64,000 nucleotides of DNA from Flectonema sp. DT1601 (lineage: Eukaryota): contig OZ025795.1 of the NCBI GenBank assembly GCA_964019425.1, forward strand, positions 1,302,001 through 1,366,000, written 5' to 3'. Below the pieces are notes generated by a model. It did not search any database, was not told the origin of the DNA, and was given only the letters and a program-made list of their open reading frames with translations. This document shows positions 10,467 through 63,317 of this stretch, in pieces; position 1 is the first letter of the stretch; every line of letters starts with the position of its first letter. The position numbers were made by a program, and so were the translations under genes.

Positions 10467-12072
10467 ATGCAGGTTTTTGTGACGTGTCCGGATTTGGGAT
10501 TCCCCGCAGTGTCAGTCGCGACTGGTGTTGATTCCCTTGTGAGCGAAGTGTTGACGGCGGCAGCTGGGGAGTGGGATGTGGATCCGGAGGAAGTTGAACT
10601 GTCGTTCGCTGGTGACACGCTTTGCGAAAGTGAGCGACTAGCAGATCGTGGAGTGGTTGGAGAGAGCGAGTTGGAGATGTGGAAGAAGCGGTTTCGTATA
10701 TTTAGTAAATGCTGGTTTGTTGATGATTCAAAACGGGAGAAGCTGCTTCGTTGGCTAAGTGAACACAATGAGGAATACTTATGCCTTGACACCACAACAT
10801 TCACAGAGGATGGTTGCCTCAGTATTAAGGGTGATTTGCTTCCTTCTGATGCCGAACGGATTTCTTTCCGCAATTCAAATCCCGACATCTCAGCCATCTC
10901 ACAAGTTGTCACCATTGGAGATTTTTTCTTGTGTCACTGTTCACAAATCACTTCTGTTGATTTTTCAGGTCTTAGTAGTGTCACCACTATTGGAAATGCT
11001 TTCTTGTGTCACTGTTCACAAATCACTTCTCTTGATTTTTCAGGTCTTAGTAGTGTCACCACTATTGAAGGTTTTTTCTTGTATTCCTGCTCACAAATCA
11101 CTTCTCTTGATCTTTCAGGTCTTAGTAGTGTCACCACTATTGGAAATAGTTTCTTGTCTCATTGTTCACAAATCACTTCTCTTGACCTTTTACGTCTTAG
11201 TAGTGTCACCACTATTGGAGATTATTTCTTGTCTTCCTGCTCACAAATCACTTCTCTTGATCTTTCAGGTCTTAGTAGTGTCACCACTATTGGAAATAGT
11301 TTCTTGTCTCATTGTTCACAAATCACTTCTCTTGACCTTTTACGTCTTAGTAGTGTCACCACTATTGGAGATTATTTCTTGTCTTCCTGCTCACAAATCA
11401 CTTCTCTTGATCTTTCAGGTCTTAGTAGTGTCACCACTATTGGAAATAGTTTCTTGTCTCATTGTTCACAAATCACTTCTCTTGACCTTTTACGTCTTAG
11501 TAGTGTCACCACTATTGGAGATTATTTCTTGTCTTCCTGCTCACAAATCACTTCTCTTGATCTTTCAAGTCTTGGTAGTGTCACCACTATTGGACATAGT
11601 TTCTTATATCACTGTTCACAAATCACTTCTGTTGACCTCTCAGATCTTAGTAGTGTCACCACTATTGGAGATTATTTCTTGTCTTCCTGCTCGCAAATCA
11701 CTTCTCTTGATCTTTCAGGTTCTAAGTAGTGTCACCACTATTGGATTTCGTTTCTTATATCACTGTTCACAAATCACTTCTCTTGATCTTTCAGATCTTA
11801 GTAGTGTCACCACTATTGGACATAGTTTCTTGTCTCATTGTTCGCAAATCACTTCTGTTGACCTCTCAGGTCTAAGTAGCGTCACCACTATAGGAGATTA
11901 TTTCTTGTCTAAATGTACACAAATCACTTCTCTTGTTCTTTCTGGTCTTAGTAGTGTGATTAAAATAGGCGATAGGTTCCTTGCTAATAGCAATGCACTT
12001 GAATCTGTTCAGCTGCCTGTAAATAATGGCGCTCTCTTTGAGAAGTCAGTGGAAGCAGCGATTAATCATTAA
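10467..12072 (+). pseudogene. UBL-LRR gene copy 1: ubiquitin-like domain + 14 BspA/TpLRR-type 23-aa repeats + C-cap; one +1 frameshift near 11720
   Basis: MQVFV...LSFAGDTL...LADRGV ubiquitin-fold pattern; repeat ITSLDLSGLSSVTTIGxxFLxxCSQ. GGTTCTA at 11718-11724 versus GGTCTA/GGTCTT in other units (true mutation or assembly error). Confidence 0.8.
10898..11960 (+). repeat. 69-bp coding tandem array with a 138-bp higher-order unit repeated three times
   Basis: Units alternate AAT AGT..TCT CAT and GAT TAT..TCT TCC from about 11130 to 11560. Confidence 0.95.
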
Positions 12073-12884: not shown

Positions 12885-13594
12885 ATGCAAGTTTTTGTGA
12901 CGTGTCCGGATTTGGGATTCCCCGCAGTGTCAGTCACGACTGGTGTTGATTCCCTTGTGAGCGAAGTGTTGACGGCGGCAGCTGGGGAGTGGGATGTGGA
13001 TCCGGAGGAAGTTGAACTGTCGTTCGCTGGTGACACGCTTTGCGAAAGTGAGCGACTAGCAGATCGTGGAGTGGTTGGAGAGAGCGAGTTGGAGATGTGG
13101 AAGAAGCGGTTTCGTATATTTAGTAAATGCTGGTTTGTTGATGATTCAAAACGGGAGAAGCTGCTTCGTTGGCTAAGTGAACACAATGAGGAATACTTAT
13201 GCCTTGACACCACAACATTCACAGAGGATGGTTGCCTCAGTATTAAGGATGATTTGCTTCCTTCTGATGCCGAATGGATTTCTTTCCGCAATTCAAATCC
13301 CGACATCTCAGCCATCTCACAAGCTGTCACTATTGGAAATCGTTTCTTGTATCTTTGTTCACAAATCACTTCTCTTGATCTTTCACGTCTTAGTAGTGTC
13401 ACCACTATCGGAGATGTTTTCTTGTGTGGCTGTTCACAAATCACTTCTCTTGATCTTTCAGGTCTTAGTAGTGTCGCCACTAGGAGATTATTTCTTGTCT
13501 GAGTGTACACAAATCACTTCTCTTATTCTTTCAGGTCTTAGTAGTGTCACCACTATTGGAGATGTTTTCTTGTGTGACTGTTCACAGATCGCTT
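12885..13594 (+). pseudogene. UBL-LRR gene copy 2: 2-nt deletion near 13481, interrupted by a retrotransposon in repeat 4
   Basis: Near-identical to copy 1 at a 2418-bp offset, including ~200 bp of upstream DNA. LRR sequence stops at ...TGTTCACAGATCGCTT (13594). Confidence 0.85.
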
Positions 13595-13662
13595 GGGATC
13601 ACGACACCTGCCTCCTCGCGGCGGTCCCGGACGACTTCGATAGGGGTCGACAAAACAGTGTC
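13595..13662 (+). ncRNA. HDV-like self-cleaving ribozyme at the element 5' end
   Basis: P1 GGGAUC/GGUCCC; P2 GACAC/GUGUC; P3 GCC/GGC; L3 UCCUCGC; P1.1 CC/GG; P4 CGACUUC/GGGGUCG; candidate catalytic C at 13651 followed by AAAA. Confidence 0.8.
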
Positions 13663-16620
13663 AAACACAAGAGATGCCAACAACATCAAAACCATCAAAA
13701 CCAGCTACAACATCCAGAGCATACAAACCCTGGATGCTTCTTGTCAAATAAAGAACGGAATAAACTAGCCCATGCCTTGAATGGCAATGGTGGACCAGGA
13801 AAGGACAGCAGAGACCGACGCCCGCGAGACGATACTCGCGACAGGGACGAAAACCGTCCAAACAAGGAGGAACGCCGCATAGCGAAGCTCGAGAAAGAGA
13901 AACTCGACTCGCTAGACGAGATAGAGGAAGAGAAGCAACGACTGGGGCAGCAGAGAATGGCCATGGAACAGCACCACCACCAGAAGGAAACCAACCTTCA
14001 AGGACAAGAAAAACAGTTGGAACAGCAACGCCAACACCAACAACAAGAACTGCAAAGTCAGTACCACCAACAACAGCAGCAACTGCAGAGCCATCATCAG
14101 CTGAAGGAAGCGGAAAACCTCCAGAAGGAGCAAAACCTACAGGCTCAACTCAAGGAGCGACACCAGCACCAACAGAAGGAATTGCAGAAGCAATACCGCC
14201 AACAACAACAGCAACTGGAAAGCCAACAGCAGAAGAAGGACGCCGAGTCTGAACAGCAAACACATCTGACTCGGTCACAACTACAGAAGGAGAAGGAATC
14301 CTTCCAGACAGAGAAGGAACGGCTCCACCTCCAGCTGGATCAGCAGTTGAAGAACGAGAAGGAGCACCTCCACCAACAACTCCAACAGAAGGAAGACGAG
14401 GTTCGTAAAGAAAAGTTAGCAGAGAGAATAGAACTCCAACAACTGCGAGATGAACTAACTCAACAAGAACAGAACATCCAACGACGTGAGGAAGAGGTGA
14501 ACCGAGGACAGCACCAACTACACCAACAACAACAACAACTAGAGCAGCAGCAACAGCAATCGCAACATCAGCAACTGGAACTACAACAACAACGGCAACA
14601 ACAGCAACAGCAACAACAGCATCAACAACTGGAACTACAACAACAACAACAACAGCACCAACAACAGCATCAACAACTGGAACTGGAACAACAACAACTA
14701 CAACAGCAACAGCAACTGCAACAACATCGACAACCGCAACAACAACCGCAACAGCAACCCGTACACTACATGCAACATCAACCGTATGCAACGTACGACA
14801 CCTACGCCCAGCAGCAGCAGTCTTCCCACTACGAAGGGCTACAACAGGAACTGAAGCGCGAAAGAGAGGAGAAGAGCGAACTACGCGAGATGCTCCGAAC
14901 TCTCCAACAACAACTGGACGGATTGAGAGAAGAACTCAAGGCCCAACATGCTGAGGCGAAGAGGCAGCAGGAAACGGCGGGACGAGAAGCGAGAGAGATG
15001 CAAGAACGTTTCTTGCTAGAACTGGAAGCGGAACGGGTCCAGATCAGAGGGCTCAACTCGCTGAGAGAAGAGGAAGAGGAACATCAGATGGACACCACCC
15101 CTGATCAGGAAGCAAATACGGAAGTGAAGCAAACGCCACCGGTGAAGCTGCCCCAAGACGGCATGAGGGAGCTGGACGCCTCACGCAAGAAGCTGATGAA
15201 AGAAATCAATGAAGGGCAGGTAGCCGGACGATCGGCCATCCAAGAGCAGATGGTCCGAGAGGCCGGGAGACTGGCGCAGACTCAGAAGAGCTGGGAGAAC
15301 GCAGCACGCAAGGAGCGATCCAGAGTGGATAACCTCTCGCTGGCACCGGAATACTGGCCAGAGGGAATGGCGATCACGAAGGAGCAGTACGACGCCGGTA
15401 CAAAGGGAGTACACCTCACCACCAGAGAGGAGGCAAGGAAGAGGATGTCGGGAACACCTCCGGGAGCCTGGGAAACGTTATCCCTGGTAACCCTGGAACC
15501 ACCATCAAGCACGGCCCAAAAAGTACAAGTGGTACTGAAGGAGACGACGAGCGACGGCGAGAAGAGAATTCTCAAGCAGCTCTGGATGACAACACTGGGA
15601 AGAGTGGTTGTACCATCCGGAACAGACGTCGTGCGGACGGAAAGCACGAGGGAGATGGTTGTCCGGGTGGACAAAAAATGATCCGGAGAGAAGAGATTGT
15701 CGGAAGTGAAGCGCTCCCCGTTCAGAGCAACGGAGGAATTGAAGAAGATGCCGGGGTACGTCGATACGTACAACCCGCGGATCGGAGACCAGAGCGTCAC
15801 GGTGATGCTCAGGGTGAAGGTAGCCGAAGTGAAGAACTTCCTCCGAGAATCGGGGAAGGACGGCGTCTTCACCAAGGAAAAGGATCCGAGAGAGGAACGA
15901 GCAGTGAAGGCGGCGGTCATTTGGCTACCGAAGGACGAGACGCTCGGAATCGCTCGGGACAAGGCTGTAGAAGTCGATGGGGGGCTGGGACTCGTGGTAA
16001 ACGAACACGGACTCGGGCTTCGAGTGACCAGCTGGCAGGAAACGGCGGCGAGGGAGAAACTGCACCTGCCGGCTAAGCTACCGGAAACAAAGATCACGGG
16101 TATCCCGATCGGCACAACCACCGACGAAGCGATCAAGTGGCTGATCACGAAGGAAGGCTGGGAAGTGAGGAAGACGAAGGAAGGCGTACGGAACGGCATG
16201 CGATGGATGGTCGTCCGCGGTCCGGTGAGAACGCAGGAAACCATCACGGTGGATGGCGTCCTGTGCATGGTGGAGGCTGGGAAACAGAAGGAGGAAGTCG
16301 ACCCGAAACGGAAGGAGACCAAACGCCCGAATGCGACACCGACGAAACCAGAGAAAAGGCGTGACCCGACGGAGGGAACGGGAGGAAAGTGGTACACTCG
16401 ATTGGAGTTCATCGAGTTTCATGGGAAGAAGAAGGGACAACGCCTATGGTTAGAAGCCAGCAACCCAACACCAACTACGACGGCACCTACGAAGGCAGCG
16501 ACCGCAACGACGACAACGGAAAAGGAACCCAAGTCGACAAAAAAGAAGGAGAACAGCTCAGTGGACGAGAGATTGGACCGACTGGAACGTCTACTGATGG
16601 CGTTCATGGAACGGAATTGA
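13597..16620 (+). CDS. retrotransposon ORF1 (Gln-rich coiled coil + unknown domains); internal in-frame TGA at 15679-15681; start codon uncertain
   Basis: ORFs 13177..15681 and 15697..16620 share one frame. Poly-Q/E heptads at 13950-15080; C-terminal coiled coil VDERLDRLERLL. Confidence 0.75.
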
Positions 16621-19600
16621 CCGGCGGAGGACGGAAGGAACTGGGCGGAGACACGGAGACGTCTCCTGCTACAAGCTGGCGACGTTGAGAGGAACCCCGG
16701 ACCGAGACCACGAATCGATGGGCTCACCGTGGGAACAATCAATGTCACCACACTAGAAGGAAAAATAGATGCCATCACAGATCTGAACCTAGATCTGATA
16801 GCTCTACAGGAAACTTCTCTGACGGGCCCACAGCAACGCCAGATGAAAAAACAGCTCGGTGAGAGAGGATGGGAAGCGACGTTCGGGTTAGAGTGCAAAT
16901 TACTAACCGATGGGCAAAAGACGTGGACGGCGGCGGGAGGCGTGGCCATCTTGACGCGCACTGGTACACCGGTGAGAAGGATAAAACACGATCGGCTCGA
17001 CAACACAGGACGATTCGTACACGCGGGAGTGTCGTACGGAAATGGCAAGGTACTGCACGTTTTCTCGTTCTACGGAGACGTACGTTCGGCGGTCTACACG
17101 GAAGAGTTGATTGCGGAGATGCTCGTGGAAGCAGCAGCTCTGGGTGATGTTCCCGTATTGATAGCGGGGGACTTCAACGTCGAAACAACGGAATCGCCGG
17201 CGCTTCTGTCGGCTTTCGCACACGGACTCTGGATAGATGCCGCCGTCTCGATGGGAAACATGACACCGACAAGCGAAGCGGGAAAAGGACTTCGTAGAAT
17301 CGATGCTATTCTGATGAACCGCGGGGCGGCGACAGCAATCTCGAATGACACAACGATCCATGTGCATAAGAGTGAGCTGATCCCGACACACAAGCCGGTC
17401 ATCATTAGAAAGCTCAACATCTCACGTTACAACGAGAAGGCTCCTAGGCTGATAGTACCGAAACAGTTGGATACCTCCGAGACAACGGCCCCGAGTGAGG
17501 GGAAGGCCGAAAGGCAACTCCACTGGACGCGAGCTGTAGCGACGGAAGATCCTGACAAGATGCTGGAGGCGCTTGGAGAGATCATCGAAAGATACCTTCT
17601 GACGGGAAATCTGGAGATAAGTAACCCAGCCAAGTACAAGGGACGCGGGAAGAAGCGTGAGCCTGTGATGTGGACGAACGCGGCGAAACAAGACGGGAGA
17701 GGAGCGACGTGCAGGGAAACGCGAAGAAGACTGCAGAAGATACGTGTTCTGGAGGAAGTGATGAAAATCACAAAGCAACGCGATGGTCCGACGGTGCCGT
17801 CCCACGAAGTAATGAAACTCTGGAAAAAATTACGAAAACTCGATCCGACGACGGGATCCGAAATACCACAGACGGAGGAGCTTCGGATACTACTACAACA
17901 AGCGAGACAGGAGCAAGCGATAGAAAGCAAGAAGCTCCGAACTGAACGCATCCGCATGTGGAAACGGAATGTTGTCGACAATTGGAATGACGACCGCACG
18001 AAAGTTTTCCAGTGGATCAGGAACGTCGAGCAATCGAAGACTGTTCTGATGGAAAAGGCAGATGGAAGCTGGACGGCCAACTGCTCCGAGATGGATGAGG
18101 CCATGCACGCGGCATGGGACCCCATACTCAAAAAGTACTTATCAGACCCGGAACCAGACTGGATGAAGTTCGAAGAACGGTACAGCATCCTAACTACATC
18201 GAGGAACACCCGATGCGATGCGAAGATATCACCGGGGAGGACGTTGCAAAAGCCCTCAGAAGGACTAGCTCGCGCAAAGCAGCTGGGGTAGACGGCTTCA
18301 GGATATCGGAGCTCAAGTCGCTACCGGAGGACATGATTCAGATGATAGCGGAATTCTACAACATAGTGGAGAGAACACACTGGCCGGAAGCACTTCTCAC
18401 GGCACTGGTGTCGGCCATACCCAAAGGGGCAGGGACGAAACTACTGGAGCAGAGACCCATTACGGTGACATCCGCACTTTACAGACTATGGGGCTGTATA
18501 CGTATGGAAAAGGATGTAATGGAGTGGCAAGAGAAGTGGGCTCACGACGGGCAGTACGGCTACCGGAAGGGGAGATCTACGCTCGACCTCAGCTGGAAGA
18601 TAGCACTAGACGTGGAACACGCAACTCTCTACGGAGAAGAGATTGCTGGAGTGACCACGGACTTCAGGAAGTGTTTCGACCTGATCCCGCACGACATCCT
18701 CCTGAAATTGGTGAAGGAATTGGGCCTCGGTGATAAGATCCTGAGAACTGTGACGGATGTCTACCGGCGACTCAGAAGGAGATTCAAGTTCCCGAGCGGC
18801 GTCGGAGAAGAATTTGCCACCACCAACGGAATACTGCAAGGATGTCCGCTCAGCGTGGTGCTCTTCAATGCGCTGAGCTCGATACTCAGCAAAGCAATCG
18901 AGAGGGAAGCCGATGTGACGCCCGGATCGTATGCGGACGACCTGACGTTGTTTGGATCACGAACGAAGCTACAAGAAGGCGTAGAAGTCGTTGCGGAGTT
19001 CTGCACCCTGACCGGACAAGAACTCGCACCTCAGAAGTGCAAGTGGTTCTCGAACAGAGACCAGGGCCAGACCAACATCACAATGGGGGACACAACACTG
19101 GACTTCGATGACAGTGTCGATATCGTGGGATGCCACCTCAGTATGAAAGGAACCACCAAGCAGATGGGGAGGATCACGGAAGAAGTGCTCGATAGAGCGA
19201 GGCGAATCCGGTTACTTCCGCTCAGATATCAAGCGAAGGAACAGATAGCTGCAGCTAGTGTCATGCCCAAGGCGCTCTTCGGAACGGCACTGTACGATCC
19301 CGATGCGACGCGACTCGGACTGCTGAGAAGAGCAATGGCAACGGGGATTTTCCGGAAACTTGGAGGGAAAAGAACTAAGATGTCGCACACCATGGGCCTA
19401 ACGCTACTCTGCAAGGGACATTGTGTGGATCCCGCGACGTACATTAGGTACAATAGACTCCTTGCACTCACCAGAATGCTACCGAAGCTAACTGAGAGGA
19501 TACGCAGGGTATGGGAACACCTGCAAGAGCACACTGAAGCGACGAGAGGACCAGTCGGCCTCGCCCTGAGTACTCTGAAGGAACTTGGATGGGAATGGTC

Positions 19601-19919
19601 AACTTTCTCGGTCTTCGAAGGTCCGGGAGGGACGACCGAACACGGAAGGCTGGATGCGGGGCGCTGGCGGCACGATGTCAGAGAGGCGTGCAGGCGTTTC
19701 ACCTGGAACAAAACAATTGCGGAAACGAGACGGGTAAACCTGAGAGGTATTGAAGCGGGCATCGACCGGAAAGAGACCCTGAAGGTCCTGAAGGAAGGAA
19801 AGGGCGACCCCTACCTGCGCGGAGTAGTGAAGCACTGCCTCCTGGACAACGTGTACACTGGCTCGATGAAGGCGGGAAACAAGAACTGCGCGCACTGCGA
19901 GGAGGTTGACGACGTAGAG
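16621..19919 (+). CDS. retrotransposon ORF2: 2A-like peptide, AP endonuclease, reverse transcriptase, partial zinc knuckle; one frameshift near 18190
   Basis: Frame is open from 16621: PAEDGRNWAETRRRLLLQAGDVERNPGP, then APE. RT continues in the 18114..19940 frame. Confidence 0.88.
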
Positions 19920-19939
19920 AGTACATCTGTTGACTTGTG

Positions 19940-21752: not shown

Positions 21753-21762
21753 GCTTTAGAAC

Positions 21763-22107
21763 AGACTCTCATCTTATTATGCGGCTTTTCTTTCCAGCCG
21801 ACGCTAAGAAGCAGAGAAGAGATGTTCGAGAAAAAAAGGAAAAAAAGAAAGAACAAGATCTCCGTTTAATCAGTAGATTGGTTATAAATCTGAAGATCAC
21901 TACATCTTCAGTAATAAATTGATATGCAAATAGTTGTTCATTCTTTGAACGTATTTAAGAATGAAAACCACTTCAACTTTTATCATTTTATAAAAGACTC
22001 TTATCTCGTTGTGCGGCTTTTGTTTTTTTCCAGCCGACGTTGAGAAACTGAGAAGAGATTTCCGAGAAGGAAAAAAGAAAAGAAAAAGATCTCCGTTTAA
22101 TCGGTAG
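21763..22107 (+). repeat. diverged ~115-bp direct duplication (21763-21876 and ~21995-22107)
   Basis: Shared TGCGGCTTTT..TTCCAGCCGACG..GAGAAGAGAT..AAGATCTCCGTTTAATC.GTAG. Confidence 0.8.
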
Positions 22108-22389
22108 CTTGAGCGAACCTTCCAAAGAACTTTCATAAAAAGTCGATTGATGCCATATTTTGTTATCTCGTCTCGTACAAGGTTGCAATTCTTGGCTTCC
22201 TCACAGGTTATAGAGTTTTACTCGGTTTAGTAGGGATTAATTCTCTATCCAAACATATAGTTGGTCCGGCGCGGTTATGACCATAAACTGACTGTCATTT
22301 TACCTGATCCTTTTGTTTTCATTTCTTGCTAAGTGATATGGCTATGTATTGCCCAATTTTTGTCGCAGTACAATCATAATGCTTTAGAC

Positions 22390-22432
22390 AACTGAGGGGT
22401 GAACGATCCTCGGTATCGTTCACCCCTCAGTT
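22390..22432. repeat. perfect 18-bp inverted repeat with a 7-nt loop
   Basis: AACTGAGGGGTGAACGAT-CCTCGGT-ATCGTTCACCCCTCAGTT. Confidence 0.95.
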
Positions 22433-22539
22433 CAGTAGGTGGGCATATGGCACATCAGGTCGTATTATAAAGTAAGATGCTGAATAAGGAATAAGAAGGG
22501 TTTTTTTAATTTTCTTGACCTTCTCCTCCACTCCCAGAT

Positions 22540-23620
22540 CATTTCTCTTTTATTTTCTTTAGTTGTTTTCAAGCTGTTAGCCTCTGGGCAAGGTGGAAGC
22601 TGGGGGTTGATCACTACCAGCCGAACCTATAAAACTACAATCTTCGCGATTGGGTCCCTGCTGATGCGGGCTACCCAACGTGTTTATTGTCCTACGAATT
22701 TTTGCATTTAATTGAATTTATTCGGATCGATCCAGTGTGGTTCGATCCGAGTCGATTCAAAAAAAAAAAAAAAAAAAAAGGGCTGCTGCCAAATCTATCT
22801 TCAATATTTAATGCTCTACGAGTGGTTTTAGTATATTATCAGTGAATTTATTTATATCCTATTTTAATTTTTTATTTATTTATTTATTTATTAGTTCGAA
22901 GTAGTTTAATAAGCAAGGCGAAGTGGAATGTTAGATTTCAGTAATCTTTCTGTCGAAGCTATTTCAACTATCCATGCTGAGTCTTCGGATATGGCTACGG
23001 ATTGGGTCCTCTGTTGCTGTGAGTTGCTCTCTTAGTAGAGTACTCATAGTATAGAGCAACGTTGGATTATATAAGTAGCTAATTAATTAATTTATTCAAA
23101 CGAGTAGTATAAGATTAAGGGTCCTGAAAACTACGTATTCCACAAGTGTTTTATGGAACAGCAGAACAATGTGTTATTTTTTTTATATAATATTATTTTT
23201 TGATTTAGTGCACCTTTTTAATAATGAACTCATATTCTAAGCTCGAAACCAACCATTATTAGTTTGTTGTCCTGCCAATTTTTGAATTTGGTTTTTTTGT
23301 TTGACAAGTAACTATTAATACTAACCAACTTAGCACTTCTAAAGTTGTGTTTTTATAAATCTTCTTTTTCTTATAGTAATTTAGCGCACTGTTTTTATAA
23401 TAAACTCATATTCTAACTAATTTAGCTCTCGATGAGTAGGACAGGCCTGACATCGCAGTGTCCCCGTTGCTTTCTTCGCTGAAGAGGGCTGGGAAAGGCG
23501 AATGGTCTGAAGAACGATTTCTTTAATTTTATTCCAAAATCCAAACGTTATTTATTTGTTGTCCTACGAATTTTTGCATTTGATTTTCTTAGTTGACTGA
23601 TAACCATTAATACTAACTTA
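22540..23620 (+). repeat. mosaic dispersed repeat family with structured modules; related blocks at ~12600-12690, 32640-33240, 33760-35750, 39130-39420, 41250-41620
   Basis: Shared strings GGGCAAGGTGGAA, GGATTGGGTCCTCTGTTGCTGTGAGTTGC, GTATAAGATTAAG..CCTGAAAACTAC, TTGTCCTACGA. Confidence 0.8.
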
Positions 23621-23736
23621 GCACCTCTATTCATCGTCTTCGCGGTACCAGCCACGACCTCCGTGCGTCTCAACTTTTATTACATAATTTTTATTCTCAG
23701 GTACTATACGGCCATGGAAAACTAATTGTGTATTGT

Positions 23737-31314: not shown

Positions 31315-34300
31315 TTAACAAGTATTGTAAGAACGAGAAAGGAATGTAGGGTAGCACACGTAAACCTCCTTTAGCTTTATCAGTTCAAGTCGGTTCACGG
31401 TTACGTGCACAAAGAATGTCGAAACTGGACATCACAATTCTTTTGTCGTTCGCTATGTTTTTTTTTTTTTTTTTTTTTTTTTTCTTGCCTTCAGAACTGT
31501 TGTGTCAGAAACAATCTCCTTTCGTCTTCTCGCTTGTGCGAGTCTCGGGGTGATTGTCCAACCTTTGGAACACAAGTTATTTCTTTTTTTTCTTTTTTCT
31601 TTTTGAATTTTTTTTCTTCAAAAAGAAAAAGTATTTGCCTAACAAAAGATTGCAAAGTCGATGGCGTTTTATAATATTTTCGCATTCAGCTACTCAGACG
31701 GTCACAAGAAAATATTTTTGACTGACGTGTGTTTTTGTGGGATTTCTCCATTGATATTAGATTGTCTTTCTGAATGAGCTGCGGTCTCACAGTAATTTCT
31801 TAGATTGCTGACAGAGACCAGCATCCTTGTTGATCAGCTTCTCCCAATTCTTTTGAAAAAAAAAAAAAAAAAGAAATAAAATAAAAGGTCAACAGTATGC
31901 ATAATCCAGCTAATTTTGAAGGGTCAATTGGGGGGGAACCTCAACGAATTTTCGTTTTTTTTTTTTTTTTTTTTTTATTGTTGTTTTTTTTCATGCTTCC
32001 ACATACCTAATTATAATTTTACAGATTTTTTTGATAACAATTTGTCTCATCCTCTTCTACATCAAAAAAAAAAAAAAAGAAACTACCCTTCACTTTAATT
32101 TTATTGTTCTCTTTTTTTTTTCTTCCCTAAAAAAGTGAATTCTTCATGTCATCACCATGCATCTCTCGACTATATGTGAGAGTCAAAAAAAAAAAAAATT
32201 AAAAAAAAGAAAAATTGATTTTTCCTGTTGAAATAAAAGTAGTGATCGATGAGCAAAACAAAACTGTTTTTTTTTCTTCTTTTTTTTTTTAAAAAAAGAA
32301 ATTCTTATTCTTAAAGCAAGCAAAGAAACTTTTGATGTTTAAGTAAGCAATATTTTTGATTCTGTTCCTCACAGAATTCCTTACAGATTGGTATATTTAT
32401 TCGTAGTATCGCATTGTTGCAGTTCTTCTTTTTAAAGCCCTTTGCAATATTAATTGTTTCGGGTCTTTTAATTCTTTTAAGTGGTATAGAGGGGGAGGGA
32501 GGTTACTAGGAATATGAAGAAAGGTTTTATTATATAAATGGATTTGAAAAAGATGCTTTTTGTATTTACTCCTTATCTCCATTCCCGCCCCTGATTAATC
32601 CTTTCGTATCGTATTATATCCCTCTCTGGTTTTTTTTTTTTTTTCAACCTGTTAGTCTGGGCAAGGTGGACAACTGGAATTGAACCTTTCAGCCGAAGCT
32701 ATAAAAATGCAATTTTCGTGGCTGAGCCATCTCCTGGTGTGGGTTACCCAGACTACCCGGACTTGCAATTATAATAAACTCGTTTATTTATTTGTGATTA
32801 CCCCTCTATTACTATCCAAGTATGAGATTAAAGCCTTTTGAAAACTACATATTTCACAGCGTTAAATGGAACAGCAGAAACAATGTTGTTTGTTTTTAAT
32901 ATATTTCTTTCTTTCATTTTTGATTCAATGTTGTTACTTTATAACAAAACTCGTATTCTAGCATACTTCTCTGACGTCATGGTCGGTGATCAAAAAAAGG
33001 AACGTGTTTGGTTAATATAAACCTTTTTTTTTTTTTTTTGTAGTCTCTTCTCTAGGGAATTCTAAATTTCTCTTTTATTTTCTTTAGTTGTTTACAACCT
33101 GTTAGCCTCTGGGCAAGGTGGAAACTGGAAGTCGATCACTTCCAGTCGATATCATAAAGTACAATCTTCGCGATTGGGCCCTTACTGATGTGGGCTACCC
33201 AGACTGATGACCCTTCGTAGTCATCAGTTTGTATTTGCTGACTAATTAAATAAAATCTTTTCCAACAACGGGATTCCGACTGAGTATTGATTTACTATCT
33301 GATTCACAACATTAATCTTTGTGTAACTTCATGATTATTTTGATGCTCTGAAGTCGCGTGAGCGATACGTAACAAAAAGCTTTAAAGAAATTGAACTGCA
33401 AGGTCTCTCCTTCTTTTTTTGTTTTTGTTTTTTGTTTTTGTATTCTTCATTTTGTCTTTCATGAATTTCCGACGGCATATAACTGGCCACTTTGAACGGA
33501 AAGCTTTGTATCTTTCTTGTTTTAATGTTCAAATTAAATCTATCACCTTTTTTCTTCTCTTGTTTTATCGCAGAACTCATCGGCCGTGCTACCAACTATT
33601 CAGATTAAGAGCCTTCTATTTATTGATCGCAGCTGTGATCAACTTAATATGAGGCTTACCTGAATGGTTTTTTTTTTTAACGAAAAAATCCAGAGACAAA
33701 ACCAGTCACTACCAGCTCCCTGCAGTCATTAATCTTTTCCCCTTGCTCTTTTCTTTCTAAAGGTACCTTTTCTTTGATTAACAACTACAAATATTTTTGT
33801 CAGTCAAGTACTTGATATTAATTTTGTTTTTAATACCTAAAGTTGTTACTGTTTTTTAATTGTCAAAGTTTCACCCCCTTGTTCTTTTCTTTCTTTCCAA
33901 CAATGTGTTGTAGTAAATGTTGCAGTCCCCACATGCACTCGCAAGTTCGTTTTTTGCGTCCTTGAGAGTGGCGAGCAGTCGGCTCTTAACAATAGTGCGT
34001 GAACGGGAGCGAGGTTAGAGCTACGCATGTATTTTTTATATAGTGACTCGCTCGTTGGTATTATTATTTTTTTGTTAGCAACTTGTTATTATTATTAGTA
34101 AATAAACCCGTTAGGGAATTCAACTATCCACACCGTCTTCGGAAACGGTTACGGATTGGGTCCTCTGTTGCTGTGAGTTGCTCTCCTAGAGCACTCATAA
34201 TATAGAGCAACGTTGGGTTATATAACTAAAATTATCTGCCAAAAACTTCATATGCTTAACCTTTGTTGCTTTTATCTTGTATGTGCTGGTACCCTGCTAA

Positions 34301-34584
34301 TCAGTAACAAAAGTGAGGAATCTATTTCTGGTTTTTTTTTTTTTTTTTTTTTTTTTAAAATTCCAATCCTAACAGAACTACAGTTTTATTATCAATTCAC
34401 TTTTAGCTTTATTAAGCCAGGCAAGGTGGAAAGCTGAAGATTTTGATGTCATCTAACTTTTCCGTTAACTTAATTTATATTTCTTTGGCTAATTAACTTA
34501 TCAAGCAATCCAAATCTGAGTCTTGAAACGGCTACGGATTAGTTCCTCCGCCTTGGATGGAACAGTAGAAACGATTGTGTTAAA

Positions 34585-34621
<37 letters not shown>

Positions 34622-36316
34622 GTTGTTTGGTTTAGTAACAAAAAAAAACTCAAATTACTAACTACGGGTTGTTATCTTTTTTTTTTTTTTAAAAAAACCC
34701 AAAAAGAAAAAAAAAAAACAAGGAAAAAAAAACATCACACCAAATGCTTCAGTTCCATGAGTGTCGTGGATGTTTGGTAAATTTTTATTCCCACTTTCTG
34801 TTTTTTTAAAAATCTTTTAGACTATCTATTGCGACAAACAAAAAAAAGCAAAAAACACACACATCAGTCTCTCCAATGAGACAAACGAATTATATTTCCC
34901 TTATGTTTATTATTATATTTTTTCTCGACAAAACCTTTCTTTTGATTTAACAACTGCAAATATCATTTTCAGTTAACTACTGACACTGTTTGCTCGCGCG
35001 GGCGGTGGGTTTAGGTAGTCATTTGTTTCAGGTTATTCTACGTCTCTCATATGTCTGTGAGAGTCTCACGGTTGGCTGGTAGCGATCTAACTGTTATCCT
35101 GTTGAGCTCGTTCCTGTATTATGGCTTCCTGAACTTCAAAAAAAAAAAAAAACACCTAAAGTTTGTTACTGTTTTTACATTCAAAGTTTCACCCCATCTT
35201 CACAGGAAGTCTGAGAACCTATTCAGCTGAATCTCGTGACGTTGAAGTCGAAGTTGCAAAGCAAACTGATTATAAGCTCGATGGATCTTCCTTGTTGCTG
35301 TGTGTCGAGAGGTCGACCACATACTGAGTGAAAAAAAATATTGTATACTCAAAGGACGAAGAGCATTTTTCGGTTTTTATTTATTTTTTTTTTTTTGTGT
35401 TATTTTTACTACGAATATCCGTAGCAATTCAAAAAAAAAAAAAAAAAAAACATTCTCCCATCATTCATCAGAGGTTTGTTTTTCTTTCTCAAAAACCCAA
35501 AAATTACTAAATTCAACAATGATTTCTGAATACTAATACTAACATTCTTATTGTTATATAACTATAAGTCTTCTGTGAGTCTTCGGAAACGGTTATGGAT
35601 TGGGTCCTCTGTTGCTGTGAGTTGCCCTCCTAGAGCACTCATAACATACAGCAACGTTGGATTAAAATAACTAGCTATTTTAAAATTGAAGGTTCCAACT
35701 ATCCAAAAACTGCATAACCTTGTTGCTTTTATCTTGTGTGTTTAAACGAAACATCGCCCTCTGTGCTTCGGTTAGTCGAATTTTGTTATTTTTCTTCTGT
35801 TCCTTCACTTGGTGTTTTTTGCTTTAGTGAAAAAGAAAAAAAAAACTAGTTGTTTCTTCTTGTCAAAAAAAAAAAAAAAAAAAAAAAAGGCAAAACCTGC
35901 CGTAGTTGGTAGGTTTGCGTTGTTATTTTCCTTCTCTGTGCTTTCAAAAAAAAAAAAATAAATAAATAAAAAGAGTATCTTATGGGTATTATTGTTCATT
36001 AATTATTTAATGAAATCTTTGCAGGTTACTCATTCTTTTCTTATTCCCTTTTTCCTGTTCAATGTGGTTGTCTAACAGCAACTTGTTGATTGTTTTTTTT
36101 TTTTTTTTTTTTTTTTTTTGTTCTGTTTGAAAGAAAGAAAAGAAGGAATTCAAAAAAAAAAAAAAGAAAAAAAAAAAAAACACTGTAGTACATGTTTCTC
36201 CAATGGAATAACAGAGAGGAGATTTTTAACAAACTGTACTGTGCAGGTAATACCTTTTCCCAAAAAAAATGAATAAATAAATTTACATGTTCATTATACT
36301 CATCAGCAATCACGAT

Positions 36317-37684
36317 ATGAAGCTACCAGTCTACGCCAGGCTGCCAGAAGGAACACTTCTTTTCTTAGAAGTTGATCAGACTGGTACTATTGGGTTCCTT
36401 ATAAAGGAAATTGAATCTCAAACTGGAGTGAAGGGGATTAAATTAATGTTAAACGGCGTATCACTCGGAGGGGAAGCAACAGAACTATCTGACTGTGGAG
36501 TGTACTCTGAATGTGTTATCGACGTTGATTTCCATAGAATAATAATCGGAGATAAAGGCAGCGAGACTGTTGATGGATTCATTGCTTCACCACAAGGACT
36601 TTTATTATACTCAAAGTTGGGTAATGCTACTGCTGTGAATACGTTACTGCAATGTGGAATAGATCCTAATTGTAAGAACAGCTCAGGAGAATCACCTCTT
36701 CATCTCTCTGCTATGAGAGCTCATTATAATGTTGTTGAGTTGCTGTTGCAGTATAATTGTGATGCGAAGGCACATGATGCTTTTGGAAATAGTCCTTTGT
36801 ATTTAGCATGTGAACATTCCCATCCAGATATTATCTCTCTGCTATTAAATACTGGTATTCCTTGTCAACTTAGTTATCTTGTTGTTGGTATGTCTCAAAA
36901 GAATACAGATGTTATTAGTGTATTGCTACGATACACTAATCACTTAGAAGAAACTGATGCGGAAGGTCATACAGCTTTACATCATGCGGTTGATACTCGA
37001 GATGTTTCAGTTGTGAAGTCAATTACTGAAGCAGGTTGTCCTGTTGATACATCTTCAAGAACAGGAGTGACACCATTATTAGCATCGTGTGAAAGAGGTT
37101 GTGCTGACATAGCGAGTTATCTCTTACAGAAGGGAGCTAACCCACATCATAAGAATGGGAATAAATCAAATGCGATAACATCATCGATTGGGACAGTTGA
37201 TTCTGAAAAGTTAGTAACAATGTTATTAAAGTTTGGAGTCGATCCAAATGTAGCAGACGCGAGAGCTGACGCATCACCACTAATGTTGTCATGTCAGTTA
37301 GATGATAAAGCAGTTACTCGTTGTCTTGTTATGATGAGTCATGATTTGGATATAAATTATCAAAACTCATCTGGGAACACATCGCTGATGGAAGTTGCTG
37401 CATCTGGTTGCGAAGCAACTGCTAACATTCTTCTTTCATCATCATCTCTTAACCTCAACATTAGAAATAATACAGGTAAGACTGCTCTTCATATTGCTGC
37501 AGAACGTGGTCATGTTTCTGTGATTGAATTACTGTTATCGAAGGGTGCTGATGCGGAAATCAGAACCCTTCGAGGTGTGAATCCTCTACTTCTCGCAGTC
37601 AGAAATAATCAAGTCACTGCAGCAGAAGTAATGCAACGCCACCTTGAGAAACGATCGGGTGACAGTTGCTGCATTATATCGTAG
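36317..37684 (+). CDS. ubiquitin-like domain + ankyrin-repeat protein with C-terminal CaaX (CCIIS)
   Basis: N-terminal VYARLPEG..LMLNGVSL..LSDCGVYSECVIDV; repeated GxSPLH/GxTALH ankyrin motifs. Confidence 0.85.
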   Translation: MKLPVYARLPEGTLLFLEVDQTGTIGFLIKEIESQTGVKGIKLMLNGVSLGGEATELSDCGVYSECVIDVDFHRIIIGDKGSETVDGFIASPQGLLLYSKLGNATAVNTLLQCGIDPNCKNSSGESPLHLSAMRAHYNVVELLLQYNCDAKAHDAFGNSPLYLACEHSHPDIISLLLNTGIPCQLSYLVVGMSQKNTDVISVLLRYTNHLEETDAEGHTALHHAVDTRDVSVVKSITEAGCPVDTSSRTGVTPLLASCERGCADIASYLLQKGANPHHKNGNKSNAITSSIGTVDSEKLVTMLLKFGVDPNVADARADASPLMLSCQLDDKAVTRCLVMMSHDLDINYQNSSGNTSLMEVAASGCEATANILLSSSSLNLNIRNNTGKTALHIAAERGHVSVIELLLSKGADAEIRTLRGVNPLLLAVRNNQVTAAEVMQRHLEKRSGDSCCIIS

Positions 37685-38628: not shown

Positions 38629-39795
38629 CTTTGTAGCTGATATGTTGTTGAACAAGATATCTTTAATCGTTCCCCTGCTCCCAATTTTCTTTAAATCGGT
38701 CGATTGTTCTTTTTTTTATTTACCGATCTGAACAACAAACAACTGTTGGATTATACAAATATATAAACTAACTAACAACATAAACATCAATAACACCAAC
38801 AACAGAAAGCAGCTGGTAATGTCTGCTTTTTTCGGTGATTTCTTTTGTTCCCGTGTTCTCTCCCTTTGAGAGCATGACTTCTAATACGACACCGTTACCT
38901 TCCTCGTACGGTATTTCGATTGCTCTTCTCTCGTCAGTAAGATCTCAATAAATTTTATTAATTAGCTGAACTTGCTAACCAGCTGAGCGACAATTCCTTA
39001 GATGGAAACGACACAAAATAGAAACTCAAACCTGGTAGTTAAACGCGCAGACGTCGAAGACATAAGTTTAAATTAAACGACAAAGAACATAAACTAACCT
39101 GACTAGCTCCGATGAATTTTTTACCTTAAAATGATAACAACTTCAATATAGAACGAAGTCCCTAGAACTTAGTGAGAGAGGACTAAAGGGGATGCCGGAC
39201 ATGTTCTATTTCCGCAGATGAATGGTCTTTTGTTTTATTTTTGTCTTTTCTTTATTTTGAGTTATAATCTTTTCTATAATAAAATAATACCAACTGGAGG
39301 GCAACCCCAGCGGTGAGTAGACACCGCAGTGTCCCCCTTTACTTCCCTCGCCGAAGAGGGCTGTTAATTTTTAGCCCGAAAAACAACCATTATTTGTTTG
39401 TTGTCATTTGATTTCTTTTTTTAATTATTATTTGTGTTTTTTTTCTTTTTTCTTTTATATGAATCAGAGGGAATCAGAGGGAAGTGGTTTATTGTATCGA
39501 CGACGGTTGGTTAAGTCTTCAAGAGTATGAATAAAAATATTTTACTTTTTTACTTTTGAATTGTTGAATAGATCAGAATTCTTTTTTTTTCCTTTTTTTT
39601 TTTCTTTTCGAGTAGTTGCGTTAGTGAGAAACTAGTTGTAATGTTTACTAAATTAAACTGTCAGTAAAGAATGAATGGCTCAAAACAAACTGAGCTCAAA
39701 TAACACCAATCTGTGTCCTAGATGGACAAGCACATACCAGCAGTGTTAACTGATTACCGTGAGCTTTGCCTGCCTGAAAAAAGATAATAGTTAGT

Positions 39796-40578
39796 CCCTG
39801 TAACGGGCTACAGGACATGGGGCGCTCAACCTGTAGTACGTGGCCTCGAATCCCCATATTCGACAGAACATATGGGGTTTTTTATCGATACCAATTGTTG
39901 ATTTTCTTATATTGCAACCAGGTTTTGCCGAACCCTATTCTCGTTTTAGCCGGTTTCAAGTTGCTTTCTATTTGATATTAGTATCAAGTTACCCCCCAAT
40001 AAGTAACTACACTCTAGTCCTGCTAACTGGAGTGATTCAGTCACAATAGTAGACTGACTACTTCTACACCATAACTGATGATGAGAGAATAGAGTAAAGA
40101 GGTATATGGATTACTCTTGAAACCTGATAGTTACTTTAAAAGGCTAAGTTAAGCACTGTATCCTTAACAGATGTTGTATTTTACAAATTCAAACATTCAA
40201 CCCCCCTACAACACTTTTAAACTACTATTCCCAAGTTATCTCCCAAAGTCTTGCGACGTGTGCACCACAGTAATGCGCTACGAATCAATATATTTTTTGG
40301 TTTTCTTTTACATTGTTTTTTTCCCCTTTTTATTTGTGAGGTTTGCTTTTGAAATCCATTTTATTGGTTTTCAAATTGATATTTATATTTAAAAACTGTA
40401 ACGGGTTACACGCTCAACCTGTAGTACGTGTCCCCCGAATCCCCATATTCGACAGCATGTATGGGATTTTATCGATAGCAACTGTTGGTCTCTTTTTCAT
40501 GGCAATCCGGGTTTAGCCGAATCCTAATTTAGTTTTAACCAGTTTTCAACTTGCTTATATTTCATTATAGCGTCAAGT
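39796..40578 (+). repeat. two copies of a ~190-bp dispersed repeat; further copies at ~43850-43990 and 62263-62390; probable piggyBac-like left end
   Basis: Shared TGTAACGG..GTACGTG..CGAATCCCCATATTCGACAG..TATGGG. The copy at 62259 begins TTAA|CCCTT. Confidence 0.65.
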
Positions 40579-42343
40579 TTATCATCCTAGGCGGTCATCC
40601 AACCTGTGTCAGTTAATTTCGCCCTCTAAATTTGGAGGGCGGTTCTAACTCCGACAATTTTAAAATGTTGCTTTTATTATTATTATATCGATTCACCTTA
40701 ATATTTTTAACAATTAATTGCTCAGTAGGCATGAGATGAGGCAGAAATTCTTTCTTTGAATGAAAAACTCACAAAATAATACTACGAACCTGAAGATCGT
40801 ATTTTCTCTTTGACATTGATTACATTTCGTAGTCGGTTATCGTCCGTCTCTTACACTGCCTGCCTCGTCAATAACTTCTAGTTAAAGTACGTCTCTCCTC
40901 GCTGTGAGAGTCTCTCTTAAATACTGTTTCCTGAATTCGAATGTTTTTTCTTTTTTTTGATAAAATTATTTATCTTTTCATAACTGAGACAAGTCTTCAC
41001 TCAAAAAGGGTAATTAATATTTGTGTGAATTATTATTTACTCTTCCTTTGATGTATTGTTTGTATTCTTTCTTGTTTTTTTTTTTTTTTTTCTTCTTTGA
41101 ATTATTTGGTTTTAAATTTGTAGTTTTCAGCAGTCTGGTCCCCACTGTCCGTCGCAGATCTTTCCATTTTTTTTTTTTTTTTTAAAATCCCTCTTAAGTG
41201 TGCGTATACTTGTTTCTGTTTTAAAACTAACTGATTCATGTTAATATTAGTCTGTGAGAGTCTCACGGTTGCTGGTAGCGATGTAACTGTTACCCTGTTG
41301 AGCTTTTCCTGGTTTAGTTTACAACGATGGCAACTTCAATATAGAATGAAGTCTCTTAGAACTTACTGATGAAGGCCTAAAAAGGGACAAATAGTATAAG
41401 ATTAAGTCTCCTGAAAACTACATATTCTATTACCCTTTTGATGTTAGGAAACTGCAGAAATGAATACTTTTCTTTTGCTAATTTTTACTTTTTATTCTCA
41501 CTTTTCTATACTAAATTTAATGATAACTAACTGATAACCGTTGATACTAACTAATCATCTTTATGAGTAGGACAGTCACTTACTTTCTTTGTTGTCCTAC
41601 GAGTTTTTGTATTTCATTAACCTATTTAATGTTACACAAAATAAATAATCTTTTCCGTCTGTTCTAAACACCTACCTGCCTCCTCAGTTCTGGTAACTTT
41701 TGGTGGTTAATTCTCCAAGGTACTTTAGTTATAATTTAAAAGGTATATAACTCTTTAAAAGACTGCTACAGTAACATTAGCAATCTGGCGCTCAACTGTG
41801 TTCATATGACTTGCTGTGATATTGTTTTATTTGCAGCTATTTACAATGCTGCCGCTGACAGTCAAGATTGTCTGAAGTGGTGTTGTTTTTTTTGAGCCTG
41901 ATTACGTATCTTATAATCTCTCCCCTACAAGATCGCTTCGAGTCTCTTTCTTCTTCTTCTTGTTTTCTTTTTTGGTAATTTATATAAATAAATAATAAAT
42001 AACTTTCACTTTGGTTTTGTTATTTTGTCAGTTCTTTGCCTTTGTCATATTGTACAAAGATTTCTATTTATAGTTTTAAAAAGTAACACAAGTAGAGAAT
42101 CACATAAATCAACTTCCTTTCATGTACTCTCACAGTATCCATACCTATGATGATAGAATAGAGTTAAAGAGATAATCTAAGTTCACTTTCAAAGCTTCAA
42201 TACAATTAATTCTATAACCCCCTCCACAGAGTAGAATCAGTATCGATGTCTCTGTTAGCCTTGGCAAGCAGCAGTTAGCATTTCCACTTTTTTGGAACCA
42301 CTTCAACACCCGTCTTGATTTTCAAGAATTACTCAAAGCAACA

Positions 42344-43425
42344 ATGCAGGTTTTTGTGACGTGTCCGGATTTGGGATTCCCCGCAGTGTCAGTCACGACT
42401 GGTGTTGATTCCCTTGTGAGCGAAGTGTTGACGGCGGCGGCTGGGGAGTGGGATGTGGATCCGGAAGAAGTTGAACTGTCGTTCGCTGGTGACACGCTTT
42501 GCGAAAGTGAGCGACTAGCAGATCGTGGAGTGGTTGGAGAGAGCGAGTTGGAGATGTGGAAGAAGCGGTTTCGTATATTCAGTAAATGCTGGTTTGTTGA
42601 TGATTCAAAACGGGAGAAGCTGCTTCGCTGGCTAAGAGAACACAATGAGGAATACTTATGCCTTGACACCACAACATTCACAGAGGATGGTTGCCTCAGT
42701 ATTAAGGGTGATTTGCTTCCTTCTGATGCCGAACGGATTTCTTTCCGCAATTCAAATCCCGACATCTCAGCCATCTCACAAATTGTCACTATTGGAAATT
42801 GTTTCTTGTATCTTTGTTCACAAATCACTTCTCTTGATCTTTCAGGTCTAAGTAGTGTCACCACCATTGGAGATTATTTCTTGTCTATCTGTTCACAAAT
42901 CACTTAGTGCCTCGTCATCTCACCGTGCTAGCAAGCCTGAATGACAGCACTCAAAATGGTACATATATCTGTTCACAAATCACTTCTCTTGACCTCTCAC
43001 GTCTTAGTAGTGTCACCACCATTGGACATCGTTTCTTATATCACTGTTCACAAATCACTTCTCTTGATCTTTCAGGTCTTAGTAGTGTCACCACTATTGG
43101 AGATGATTTCTTGTCTCATTGTTCACAAATCACTTCTCTTGACCTTTCAGATCTTAGTAGTGTCACCACCATTGGAGATTATTTCTTGTCTATCTGTTCA
43201 CAAATCACTTCTCTTGACCTCTCAGATCTTAGTAGTGTCACCACTATTGGAGATTATTTCTTGTCTTCCTGTTCACAAATCACTTCTCTTGATCTTTCAA
43301 GTCTTAATAGTGTGATTAATTTTGGAGATAACTTCCTTGTTGATTGCAATGCACTTGAATCTGTTCAGCTGCCTGTAAATAATGGCGCTCTCTTTGAGGA
43401 GTCAGTGGAAGCAGCTATTAATTAA
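42344..43425 (+). pseudogene. UBL-LRR gene copy 3 (6 repeats + C-cap), disrupted by a 60-bp insert plus 20-bp duplication
   Basis: Same UBL and linker as copies 1 and 2. Removing 80 bp restores a single ORF. Confidence 0.85.
42906..42965. mobile_element. 60-bp hairpin-forming insertion with a 20-bp target-site duplication
   Basis: TATCTGTTCACAAATCACTT at 42886-42905 and 42966-42985; internal stems AGTGC/GCACT and GTCAT/ATGAC. Confidence 0.85.
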
Positions 43426-62086: not shown

Positions 62087-63317
62087 GCTTATAATTAGTT
62101 TAGTAGTTTCATAACTTTAAAGAAACTACTTTTTTTGTTTTATTTTTAAAGTTGTTATGTATTTGATTCAACAGCTGATATCTTATTTTTTTTGTATAGA
62201 TGTTGTAGAGTATATAACTTTCGATAGTGTTAATTTTCTAACCCCCTCCTCCCTGCAGTTAACCCTTGTAACGGCCTACAGGGTACGTGTCCCCGAATCC
62301 CCATATTCGACAGCACGTATGGGGTTTTGTCGATTGTTACTGCCGAACTGTTTTTTTTTTTTAGTTTTTAGCAAGTTGCTTTATATTTTTAATAACAGTT
62401 ATGTAGTTTACCTGTTGAAAACTATAAAAAGAAAATTATGTGTCTTTTAGGCTTTTCTTGTTTTGTTAATGGCGTCTTCTTTTTTTTCTGTATTTTATCC
62501 TCCTCTTTCAACCACTCCCTTCATTAGTTTGTTTGTTTATTAGTCTGTTTAAAATATTTTTATTTCTTCGAACGAAAATTTTCAATTTTTTTTTAAAAAA
62601 AAATTAAAAAAAAAATCCGATTTTACCTAAATAAAAATATCGAAAATGGTAACCAATTATTACTGTGACACAGCACATAGAACTGATTTTCTTTGAGCAA
62701 CAATTCTTGATTACAATTATCGAGAATTTTTGACATTTTTTGGTATTCCATTTTCGTTAATCTTTTATCAAGAGATCTTTTGAATATCGTTTTTTTTTTT
62801 CTTCTGAATTGATTTTTCATATTCTTGGAGGGTTCAAAAACAAGCGAATGAATTTGTACTATTTATTTTTTTTCCATTCGTTCCGATGAGTGTTTTATTA
62901 TTTTGAACTTATTAATATCTCTTACAGGTTACAATATGAAGAAATGGTTCTATGAAATTGTTTGTGAAAAGTGAAATGCGGATATTTCGGTGTTTTTATT
63001 TTACCGAACACCCTATCGATGATCTCGTTGTAGCCCTCTCATATATTTTCAATATCCCTAAAGTAGGGTGAGTCACAGTTGGCTGATTTTTAGCTTCCTG
63101 GGGATTCGTGAATAAAATAAATTTCAATTTTGTAATTTAACTTTTTACTTAATAATTACATTTCTTTTTATCAGGTGAAACAGTCATCAAAATTGAAGTA
63201 ATATAATGGTAAGCTGATCTGATCTGAACTACCAGATTCTACGATGTATCTGAGGTATTAAATTTAAAAAACCTTTTCCAACCCCATCCAAGTCCAGTAA
63301 CTCATGCTATATGAACA

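What the first reader, a model, noticed from the sequence alone, without database searches (positions are those of the whole stretch)
42886..42985. 60-bp stem-loop insert with an exact 20-bp TSD and no poly(A)
Seen: the duplication includes the unit-specific TATC variant, so it is a true local duplication rather than generic repeat identity. The insert folds as AGUGC-GUCAU...AUGAC-GCACU followed by a 14-nt tail. Established: long TSDs and extreme 5' truncation mark target-primed reverse transcription, and 3' stem-loops act as RT recognition signals. Alternative: precise removal of 80 nt as a non-canonical, direct-repeat-flanked intron (a type known in euglenozoans) would restore the gene; no GT-AG placement fits.
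Basis: partly seen in the sequence, partly recalled or inferred. Interest (0 to 1): 0.7.

Follow-up and report, generated by a model that had tools for sequence, protein, structure and literature searches.

The report
LINE footprint in targeted LRR gene
A 60-base insert flanked by a 20-base duplication breaks a leucine-rich-repeat gene at the same base where whole retrotransposon copies sit in sister genes, so it is likely the tail stub of a jumping gene that homes to one spot in a protein-coding repeat.

Summary
The insert (42906-42965) and its exact 20-bp duplication are real. The insert puts a stop into a ubiquitin-like + LRR gene. The stem-loop folds no better than shuffles (z -0.77), and the TATC variant recurs in another unit. 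No GT-AG or GC-AG register removes the insert precisely.

The key evidence lies outside the finding. A LINE at 13595 (HDV-like 5' end, ORF1, 2A-like motif, APE-RT) joins a paralogous LRR gene at the same base of the 75-nt repeat. Three more copies on other contigs do the same in diverged paralogs (4 of 4 visible junctions). A second, ribozyme-compatible sequence sits at that base in two further paralogs.

The insert is therefore very likely a product of a LINE with sequence preference for a coding LRR repeat, probably its 3' terminal 60 nt. The family's ORF2 ends 'GLT-stop' and the junction reads 'IT-stop'. That identity is not shown: the window's LINE lacks its 3' end, and no DNA of other copies or reads was available.

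Precedents are ingi/RIME in RHS genes and Tetrahymena REP in LRR introns. Verdict: new variant of a known kind.

The parts
42886..42905 (+). left copy of the 20-bp target-site duplication
   Evidence: exact match to 42966-42985, no extension
42906..42965 (+). 60-bp foreign insert, likely the 3' terminal tip of an LRR-targeting LINE
   Evidence: unique in window; same left junction base as LINE copies; origin inferred
42966..42985 (+). right copy of the target-site duplication
42905..42907 (+). premature TAG made by the last host base and the first two insert bases; truncates the protein at 187 aa
   Evidence: sequence; P0096 ends SQIT
42344..43425 (+). host gene: ubiquitin-like N-terminus, linker, 25-aa BspA-type LRR array (75-nt units), broken by the insert
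   Evidence: Pfam LRR_5 E 0.0037 and Rad60-SLD E 0.043 on the truncated part, LRR_5 E 6e-34 on the paralog
12885..13594 (+). paralogous UBL-LRR gene, cut in its fourth repeat by the LINE at the same base of the unit; 2-nt frameshift near 13480
13595..19925 (+). 5'-intact, 3'-cut LINE copy: ORF1 to 16620 (nonsense codon at 15679-15681), ORF2 APE-RT (frameshift near 18200); covers residues 1-1064 of the 1542-aa family protein
13595..13665 (+). predicted HDV-like ribozyme at the first base of the LINE
   Evidence: Rfam HDV_ribozyme 20.6 bits, E 0.36, below the gathering score of 50; the only two hits were HDV families; pairing read from the sequence
16681..16704 (+). 2A-like motif (DVERNPGP) ahead of the endonuclease
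   Evidence: translation; motif identity recalled
10467..12072 (+). third UBL-LRR paralog, 14 repeats, no insertion; 1-nt frameshift near 11720

Best explanation
The 60-bp insert with its 20-bp duplication sits at the same base of an LRR-coding repeat as whole copies of a young LINE, and is likely the 3' terminal stub of that LINE (or a sister element) left by prematurely ended target-primed reverse transcription. Shown: the duplication, the stop it creates, and the shared junction base. Inferred mechanism: (1) The LINE's endonuclease recognises the conserved part of the 75-nt unit and makes two nicks 20 nt apart. (2) cDNA synthesis starts on a non-poly(A) 3' end. (3) Here it would have ended after 60 nt, possibly because the LINE's ORF2 end (…L-T-stop) resembles the target's overhang (…I-T), giving a short microhomology; the insert would then be the stop codon plus a 58-nt 3' UTR. 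(4) Whole copies insert in the sense direction, fuse in frame to the host gene, and would be released from the host transcript by the HDV-like ribozyme at their first base.
For: Exact local TSD. The window LINE's 5' junction lies at the same base of the unit; chance of sharing the base is about 1 in 75. P0098, P0099 and P0104, on three other contigs, read LRR '…IT' then LINE 'WDHDTC…'. Their hosts are diverged (P0099, P0104 and the window host share 102-129 of the first 150 residues) and the junction falls in repeat 1, 3 or later, 4 and 9, so these are separate insertions. P0107 and P0193 (hosts 34 of 72 identical) carry a second foreign tail at the same register; it fits an HDV descriptor that 67 of 20000 shuffles and 116 of 20000 random peptides fit. 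The family is young: 99% identity, cluster of 22, and 8 of 15 listed members keep the ORF2 C-terminus. Four related families end (K/R)GLT-stop after a variable region and form a clade with support 100; the insert junction reads Q-I-T-stop.
Against: No nucleotide match between the insert and any LINE was obtained. The window copy lacks its last 478 codons and 3' UTR. No stored protein holds a translation of the insert. The stem-loop is not significant. The 'T-stop' coincidence was noticed after the fact (roughly 1 in 100 by my estimate). The junction count is biased: only copies fused in frame to a reading frame show their 5' junction in a protein database. Three of the six members of the ORF1 cluster start internally and a fourth lies on the P0099 contig, so these say nothing. 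TSD length was seen for this one insertion only. The ribozyme hit is below Rfam's gathering score. The source genome of P0107 and P0193 is unknown.
Confidence: 0.75

Rival explanations
1. Same endonuclease and site, different RNA: the insert is the 3' end of a non-autonomous SINE-like element or a cellular RNA copied in trans by the LINE machinery.
For: A second, different element uses the same base. No direct match to the LINE's 3' end was obtained.
Against: The junction reads T-stop like the family's ORF2 end. No Rfam match over the insert.
Confidence: 0.13
2. Remnant of a whole insertion: a full-length copy was later deleted between the left TSD end and a similar short word near its own 3' end, leaving the last 60 nt.
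For: It predicts the same sequence as the best explanation. The window's other LINE copy has suffered a large deletion.
Against: It needs two events. 5' truncation is the usual outcome of TPRT (established knowledge).
Confidence: 0.05
3. Templated insertion during double-strand-break repair, unrelated to the LINE.
For: Short, non-poly(A), no donor found.
Against: It would share the LINE junction base by chance only about 1 time in 75. A clean 20-bp TSD is typical of staggered nicks (established knowledge).
Confidence: 0.04
4. A non-canonical intron: the 80 nt are spliced out and the gene is intact.
For: Removal of 80 nt restores the frame. Non-canonical, end-paired introns dominate in two hemistasiid diplonemids (PMC12621601).
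Against: 0 of 21 registers are GT-AG or GC-AG. The predicted folds of the 80-mers do not pair the two ends. The closest named LINE relatives are from Flectonema and Diplonema, and the four non-hemistasiid species examined have 97-98% canonical introns. The site is a LINE target. 41 imprecise GT-AG options would restore a frame, none with the GTATG donor.
Confidence: 0.02
5. Assembly artefact.
For: The window shows several single frameshifts. No reads could be laid.
Against: A foreign 60-mer with a TSD at the exact LINE target base is not an expected assembly error. No plasmid match.
Confidence: 0.01

Closest known systems
ingi/RIME (Trypanosoma brucei) and L1Tc/NARTc (T. cruzi) in RHS genes
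   Same: Euglenozoan APE-RT LINEs that insert at one hot spot in the coding region of a multigene family and make pseudogenes (PMC7563717, passages). L1Tc has an HDV-like ribozyme at +1 and a 2A sequence (PMC5814959, passages).
   Different: L1Tc has one ORF, RNase H and a poly(A) tail and shows only 'relative' site specificity. This family has a separate ORF1, no RNase H hit, no poly(A) on the stub, and its target recurs in every 75-nt unit of an LRR array.
Tetrahymena REP
   Same: Two-ORF endonuclease-RT LINE; 76% of copies lie next to LRR repeat units; 169 copies of a conserved 54-bp 3' tail are retained (PMC6564038, passages). This is the closest analogue of a short 3' stub in an LRR gene.
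   Different: REP favours LRR introns and the tails are left by programmed DNA elimination. Here the insertions hit coding sequence at one base. No kinship was tested.
R2 (28S rDNA) and other target-specific non-LTR elements (R1, Tx1, CRE, NeSL, Utopia)
   Same: Fixed-base insertion into a multicopy target; R2 RNA is cut out of a host co-transcript by an HDV-like ribozyme (PMC3774820, start of abstract).
   Different: [quoted passage not shown] Here the target is a protein-coding repeat.
TcTREZO (T. cruzi)
   Same: Site-specific element mostly inserted in MASP pseudogenes (PMC5814959, passage).
   Different: A composite repeat built from other genomic regions; not described there as an autonomous APE-RT LINE.

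Membership tests
5'-truncated non-LTR retrotransposon insertion | target-site duplication | tested here: met
   20 bp exact, local
5'-truncated non-LTR retrotransposon insertion | insertion at the site used by an autonomous LINE | tested here: met
   same base as 4 of 4 visible 5' junctions
5'-truncated non-LTR retrotransposon insertion | identity with the 3' end of a LINE | tested here: inconclusive
   window copy lacks its 3' end; no DNA of other copies; only the T-stop coincidence
5'-truncated non-LTR retrotransposon insertion | poly(A) or simple-repeat tail | tested here: not met
   sequence; many non-L1 LINEs lack poly(A) (recalled)
Ingi clade (ingi, L1Tc), for the parent LINE | APE and RT domains | tested here: met
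   Exo_endo_phos and RVT_1
Ingi clade (ingi, L1Tc), for the parent LINE | RNase H domain and a single ORF | tested here: not met
   no RNase H hit on P0001-P0004; ORF1 ends at 16620 and at the same residue in P0098 and P0104
Ingi clade (ingi, L1Tc), for the parent LINE | HDV-like ribozyme at +1 | tested here: inconclusive
   best Rfam hits are HDV families but below gathering score; cleavage not assayed
Ingi, R1 or Tx1 clade, for the parent LINE | RT phylogeny with named clade members | not testable with these tools
   tree of 64 of 70 hits has no named clade references; quick method only
target-specific LINE | most copies at one base of one target | tested here: inconclusive
   4 of 4 visible junctions plus 2 of 2 for a second element, but most of the family's copies were not seen and detection favours fusions
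canonical spliceosomal intron | GT-AG or GC-AG ends for precise removal | tested here: not met
   0 of 21 registers
euglenozoan non-canonical intron | base-pairing that joins the two ends | tested here: not met
   predicted folds of the two extreme 80-nt registers (2 of 21) leave the ends apart
euglenozoan non-canonical intron | removal from mRNA | not testable with these tools
   no sequencing run was listed
SINE or MITE | dispersed copies of the same short unit | not testable with these tools
   no genome held; one copy in the window
known structured RNA (snoRNA etc.) | Rfam match | tested here: not met
   no match over the insert at E up to 10

The most novel reading that the evidence does not exclude
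A diplonemid clade of ribozyme-headed APE-type LINEs is strictly sequence-specific for one base of a protein-coding LRR repeat: a further origin of target specificity outside R1 and Tx1, using an expanding UBL-LRR gene family as its safe harbour, truncating the LRR arrays and making in-frame UBL-LRR-ORF1 fusions. The 60-bp insert is its minimal 3' recognition element.
Probability: 0.45. Interest if true: 0.8.

Novelty: new variant of a known kind. Interest (0 to 1): 0.62.

Why it matters
Target-specific LINEs are known almost only from RNA genes, telomeres and microsatellites. One that homes to a single base of a coding LRR unit, tolerating changes at neighbouring codons, would widen the safe-harbour idea to protein families. 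It would tie retrotransposition directly to turnover of a fast-evolving LRR family, in parallel with RHS genes in trypanosomes and LRR genes in Tetrahymena. It would also supply a new APE-type site-specific endonuclease. The stub itself is ordinary, but it gives the TSD length (20 bp) and probably the 3' end of the element.

Tried and rejected
No sequencing run was listed, so reads and expression were not examined; this is no evidence either way.

Searches for the insert: exact patterns found nothing in metagenome, viral or GTDB contigs, and blastn found nothing in plasmids. Rfam gave nothing over the insert and nothing at gathering score in the window. A protein search with the insert's open frame plus downstream LRR (lengths 94-301 only) returned only the window's own truncated protein. 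No six-frame match of the insert was found in the 254 stored proteins.

Searches for LINE DNA: none confirmed in viral, metagenome or genome contigs. The Atlas look-up of ORF1 was uninformative (one hit at 0.76). Earlier findings: nothing in five look-ups.

Papers: Bringaud 2002 and Fillingham 2004 are not held. No supplements were read; those of PMC10161547 on repeats may bear on novelty.

Rejected: stem-loop significance; 'unit-specific' TATC; MITE (no terminal inverted repeat by inspection); one ancestral insertion later duplicated (different repeat numbers and diverged hosts).

Full report
Observation. The 20 bases 42886-42905 recur exactly at 42966-42985, with 60 foreign bases between them; the match cannot be extended and the insert is unique in the window. 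It lies in the second unit of a 75-nt tandem array that encodes 25-residue BspA-type LRRs behind a weakly ubiquitin-like N-terminus. The last host base and the first two insert bases form TAG, so the predicted protein ends at 187 residues. The two halves of the broken unit differ from the unit at 43195 by 0 of 49 and 2 of 26 bases, fewer than from any of the other 21 units on the left side. The duplication is therefore local, although the TATC variant is shared with that unit rather than unique. None of the 21 registers has GT-AG or GC-AG ends; 41 imprecise GT-AG choices would restore a frame, none with a GTATG donor.

The same site in the window. Two paralogs of the host gene lie at 10467 and 12885. 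The second is cut at 13594 by a GC-rich element with ORF1, a 2A-like motif (recalled), an AP-type endonuclease and a reverse transcriptase. In register, its 5' junction is the same base of the 75-nt unit as the insert's left junction. The element's first 70 bases read as an HDV-like ribozyme; the only two Rfam hits are HDV families, the best at 20.6 bits, E 0.36, below the gathering score. So this copy appears 5'-complete. It is cut after residue 1064 of 1542, which is why it cannot be compared with the insert.

The family. ORF2 is 99% identical to P0001, a cluster of 22 records; 8 of the 15 listed keep the C-terminus, on contigs of seven different lengths. The nearest named relatives are from Flectonema neradi (63-66%) and Diplonema papillatum (35-42%), so the host is probably a diplonemid (inference). 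P0001-P0004 form a clade with support 100 in a quick RT tree of 64 of 70 hits; six short alignments were dropped and no named clade references were present. All four end (K/R)GLT-stop after a length-variable region. No RNase H was found.

Site preference. A search with the first 131 codons of the LINE returned 2 proteins among 113 candidates. Both are LRR proteins fused in frame to the LINE at '…IT' then 'WDHDTC'. A third, P0104, came from the cluster list. With the window copy that makes 4 of 4 visible junctions at one base. The hosts are diverged, and the junction falls in repeat 1, 3 or later, 4 and 9, so they are separate insertions. Of the six members of that cluster, three start internally and one lies on the P0099 contig; these are uninformative. 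Detection favours copies fused to a reading frame, so the share of all copies at this site is unknown. Among the best 150 of 1478 hits to the host protein, I inspected 67 family-like proteins. Two, P0107 and P0193, leave the LRR at the same register into a second shared tail; their hosts share 34 of 72 aligned residues. The tail's codons fit an HDV descriptor written from recall, as do 67 of 20000 shuffles and 116 of 20000 random peptides; the first family passes as a control. This points to a second ribozyme-headed element at the same base; its genome of origin is unknown.

Mechanism. Shown: the TSD, the stop, and the shared junction base. Inferred: a sequence-preferring APE nicks the two strands 20 nt apart in the conserved part of the unit and TPRT starts on a non-poly(A) end. 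Whole copies insert in sense and in frame, and would be cut from the host transcript by the ribozyme, as for R2 and L1Tc. For the stub, the junction reads I-T-stop while the family's ORF2 ends L-T-stop. If the LINE's codons there resemble the target end, synthesis could have been captured by microhomology after 60 nt, making the insert the stop codon plus 3' UTR. This is a prediction noticed after the fact. No protein holds a translation of the insert and no DNA of other copies was reachable.

Comparison with the literature. Reported targets of target-specific non-LTR elements are RNA genes, spliced-leader exons, transposons, microsatellites and telomeres, with Tx1 and R1 as the APE-type examples (PMC4640811, passages). 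Coding-region precedents exist: ingi and RIME at the RHS hot spot (PMC7563717, passages), and L1Tc with relative specificity and TcTREZO in MASP pseudogenes (PMC5814959, passages). Tetrahymena REP favours LRR gene introns and leaves 54-bp tails (PMC6564038, passages). The D. papillatum genome paper notes about 2500 retroelement gene models and defers rigorous identification (PMC10161547, passages). Non-canonical introns dominate only in the two hemistasiids examined (PMC12621601, two sections). Eight searches of the held library listed no paper on a LINE specific for an LRR-coding repeat or on target-specific diplonemid LINEs. Subscription journals, Repbase and supplements were not seen.

Verdict. 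The feature is real and most likely a retrotransposon stub (0.75), not an intron (0.02). The stub alone is ordinary. Its value is as a footprint of a LINE group that homes to one base of a coding LRR repeat: a new variant of a known kind, interest 0.62.

Noticed in passing
window 13177-15681; P0098, P0099, P0104: Whole LINE insertions fuse in frame with the host gene, giving predicted UBL-LRR-ORF1 chimeras of up to 1354 aa.
   Followed up: partly
P0107, P0193: A second, unidentified element with an HDV-compatible 5' end at the same base of the LRR unit.
   Followed up: partly
P0002, P0003 N-termini: The Flectonema sister LINEs carry a Josephin-like protease segment before the 2A motif and endonuclease (Pfam E 0.012 for P0003, below cut-off); the window family lacks it.
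   Followed up: no
window 19925-20500: The LINE is cut in its zinc-knuckle region and neither its 3' end nor the rest of the LRR gene follows: a later deletion or rearrangement.
   Followed up: partly
window 10467-12072 and 13480: All three UBL-LRR genes in the window are frameshifted or interrupted.
   Followed up: no
window 21755-23630, 32600-35750, 39100-41430, 62283-62355: Several short dispersed repeats (40-170 bp, 74-95% identical) between genes, unrelated to the insert; possibly other small elements.
   Followed up: no
one search hits P0110-P0112, P0119, P0121: The LRR unit also matches long proteins with N-termini such as 'YKKYLKYKYKYL', reminiscent of giant-virus proteins (recalled), suggesting shared ancestry or transfer of this repeat.
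   Followed up: no
window 36281-37684: Another ubiquitin-like N-terminus, here fused to ankyrin-like repeats (read from the translation).
   Followed up: no
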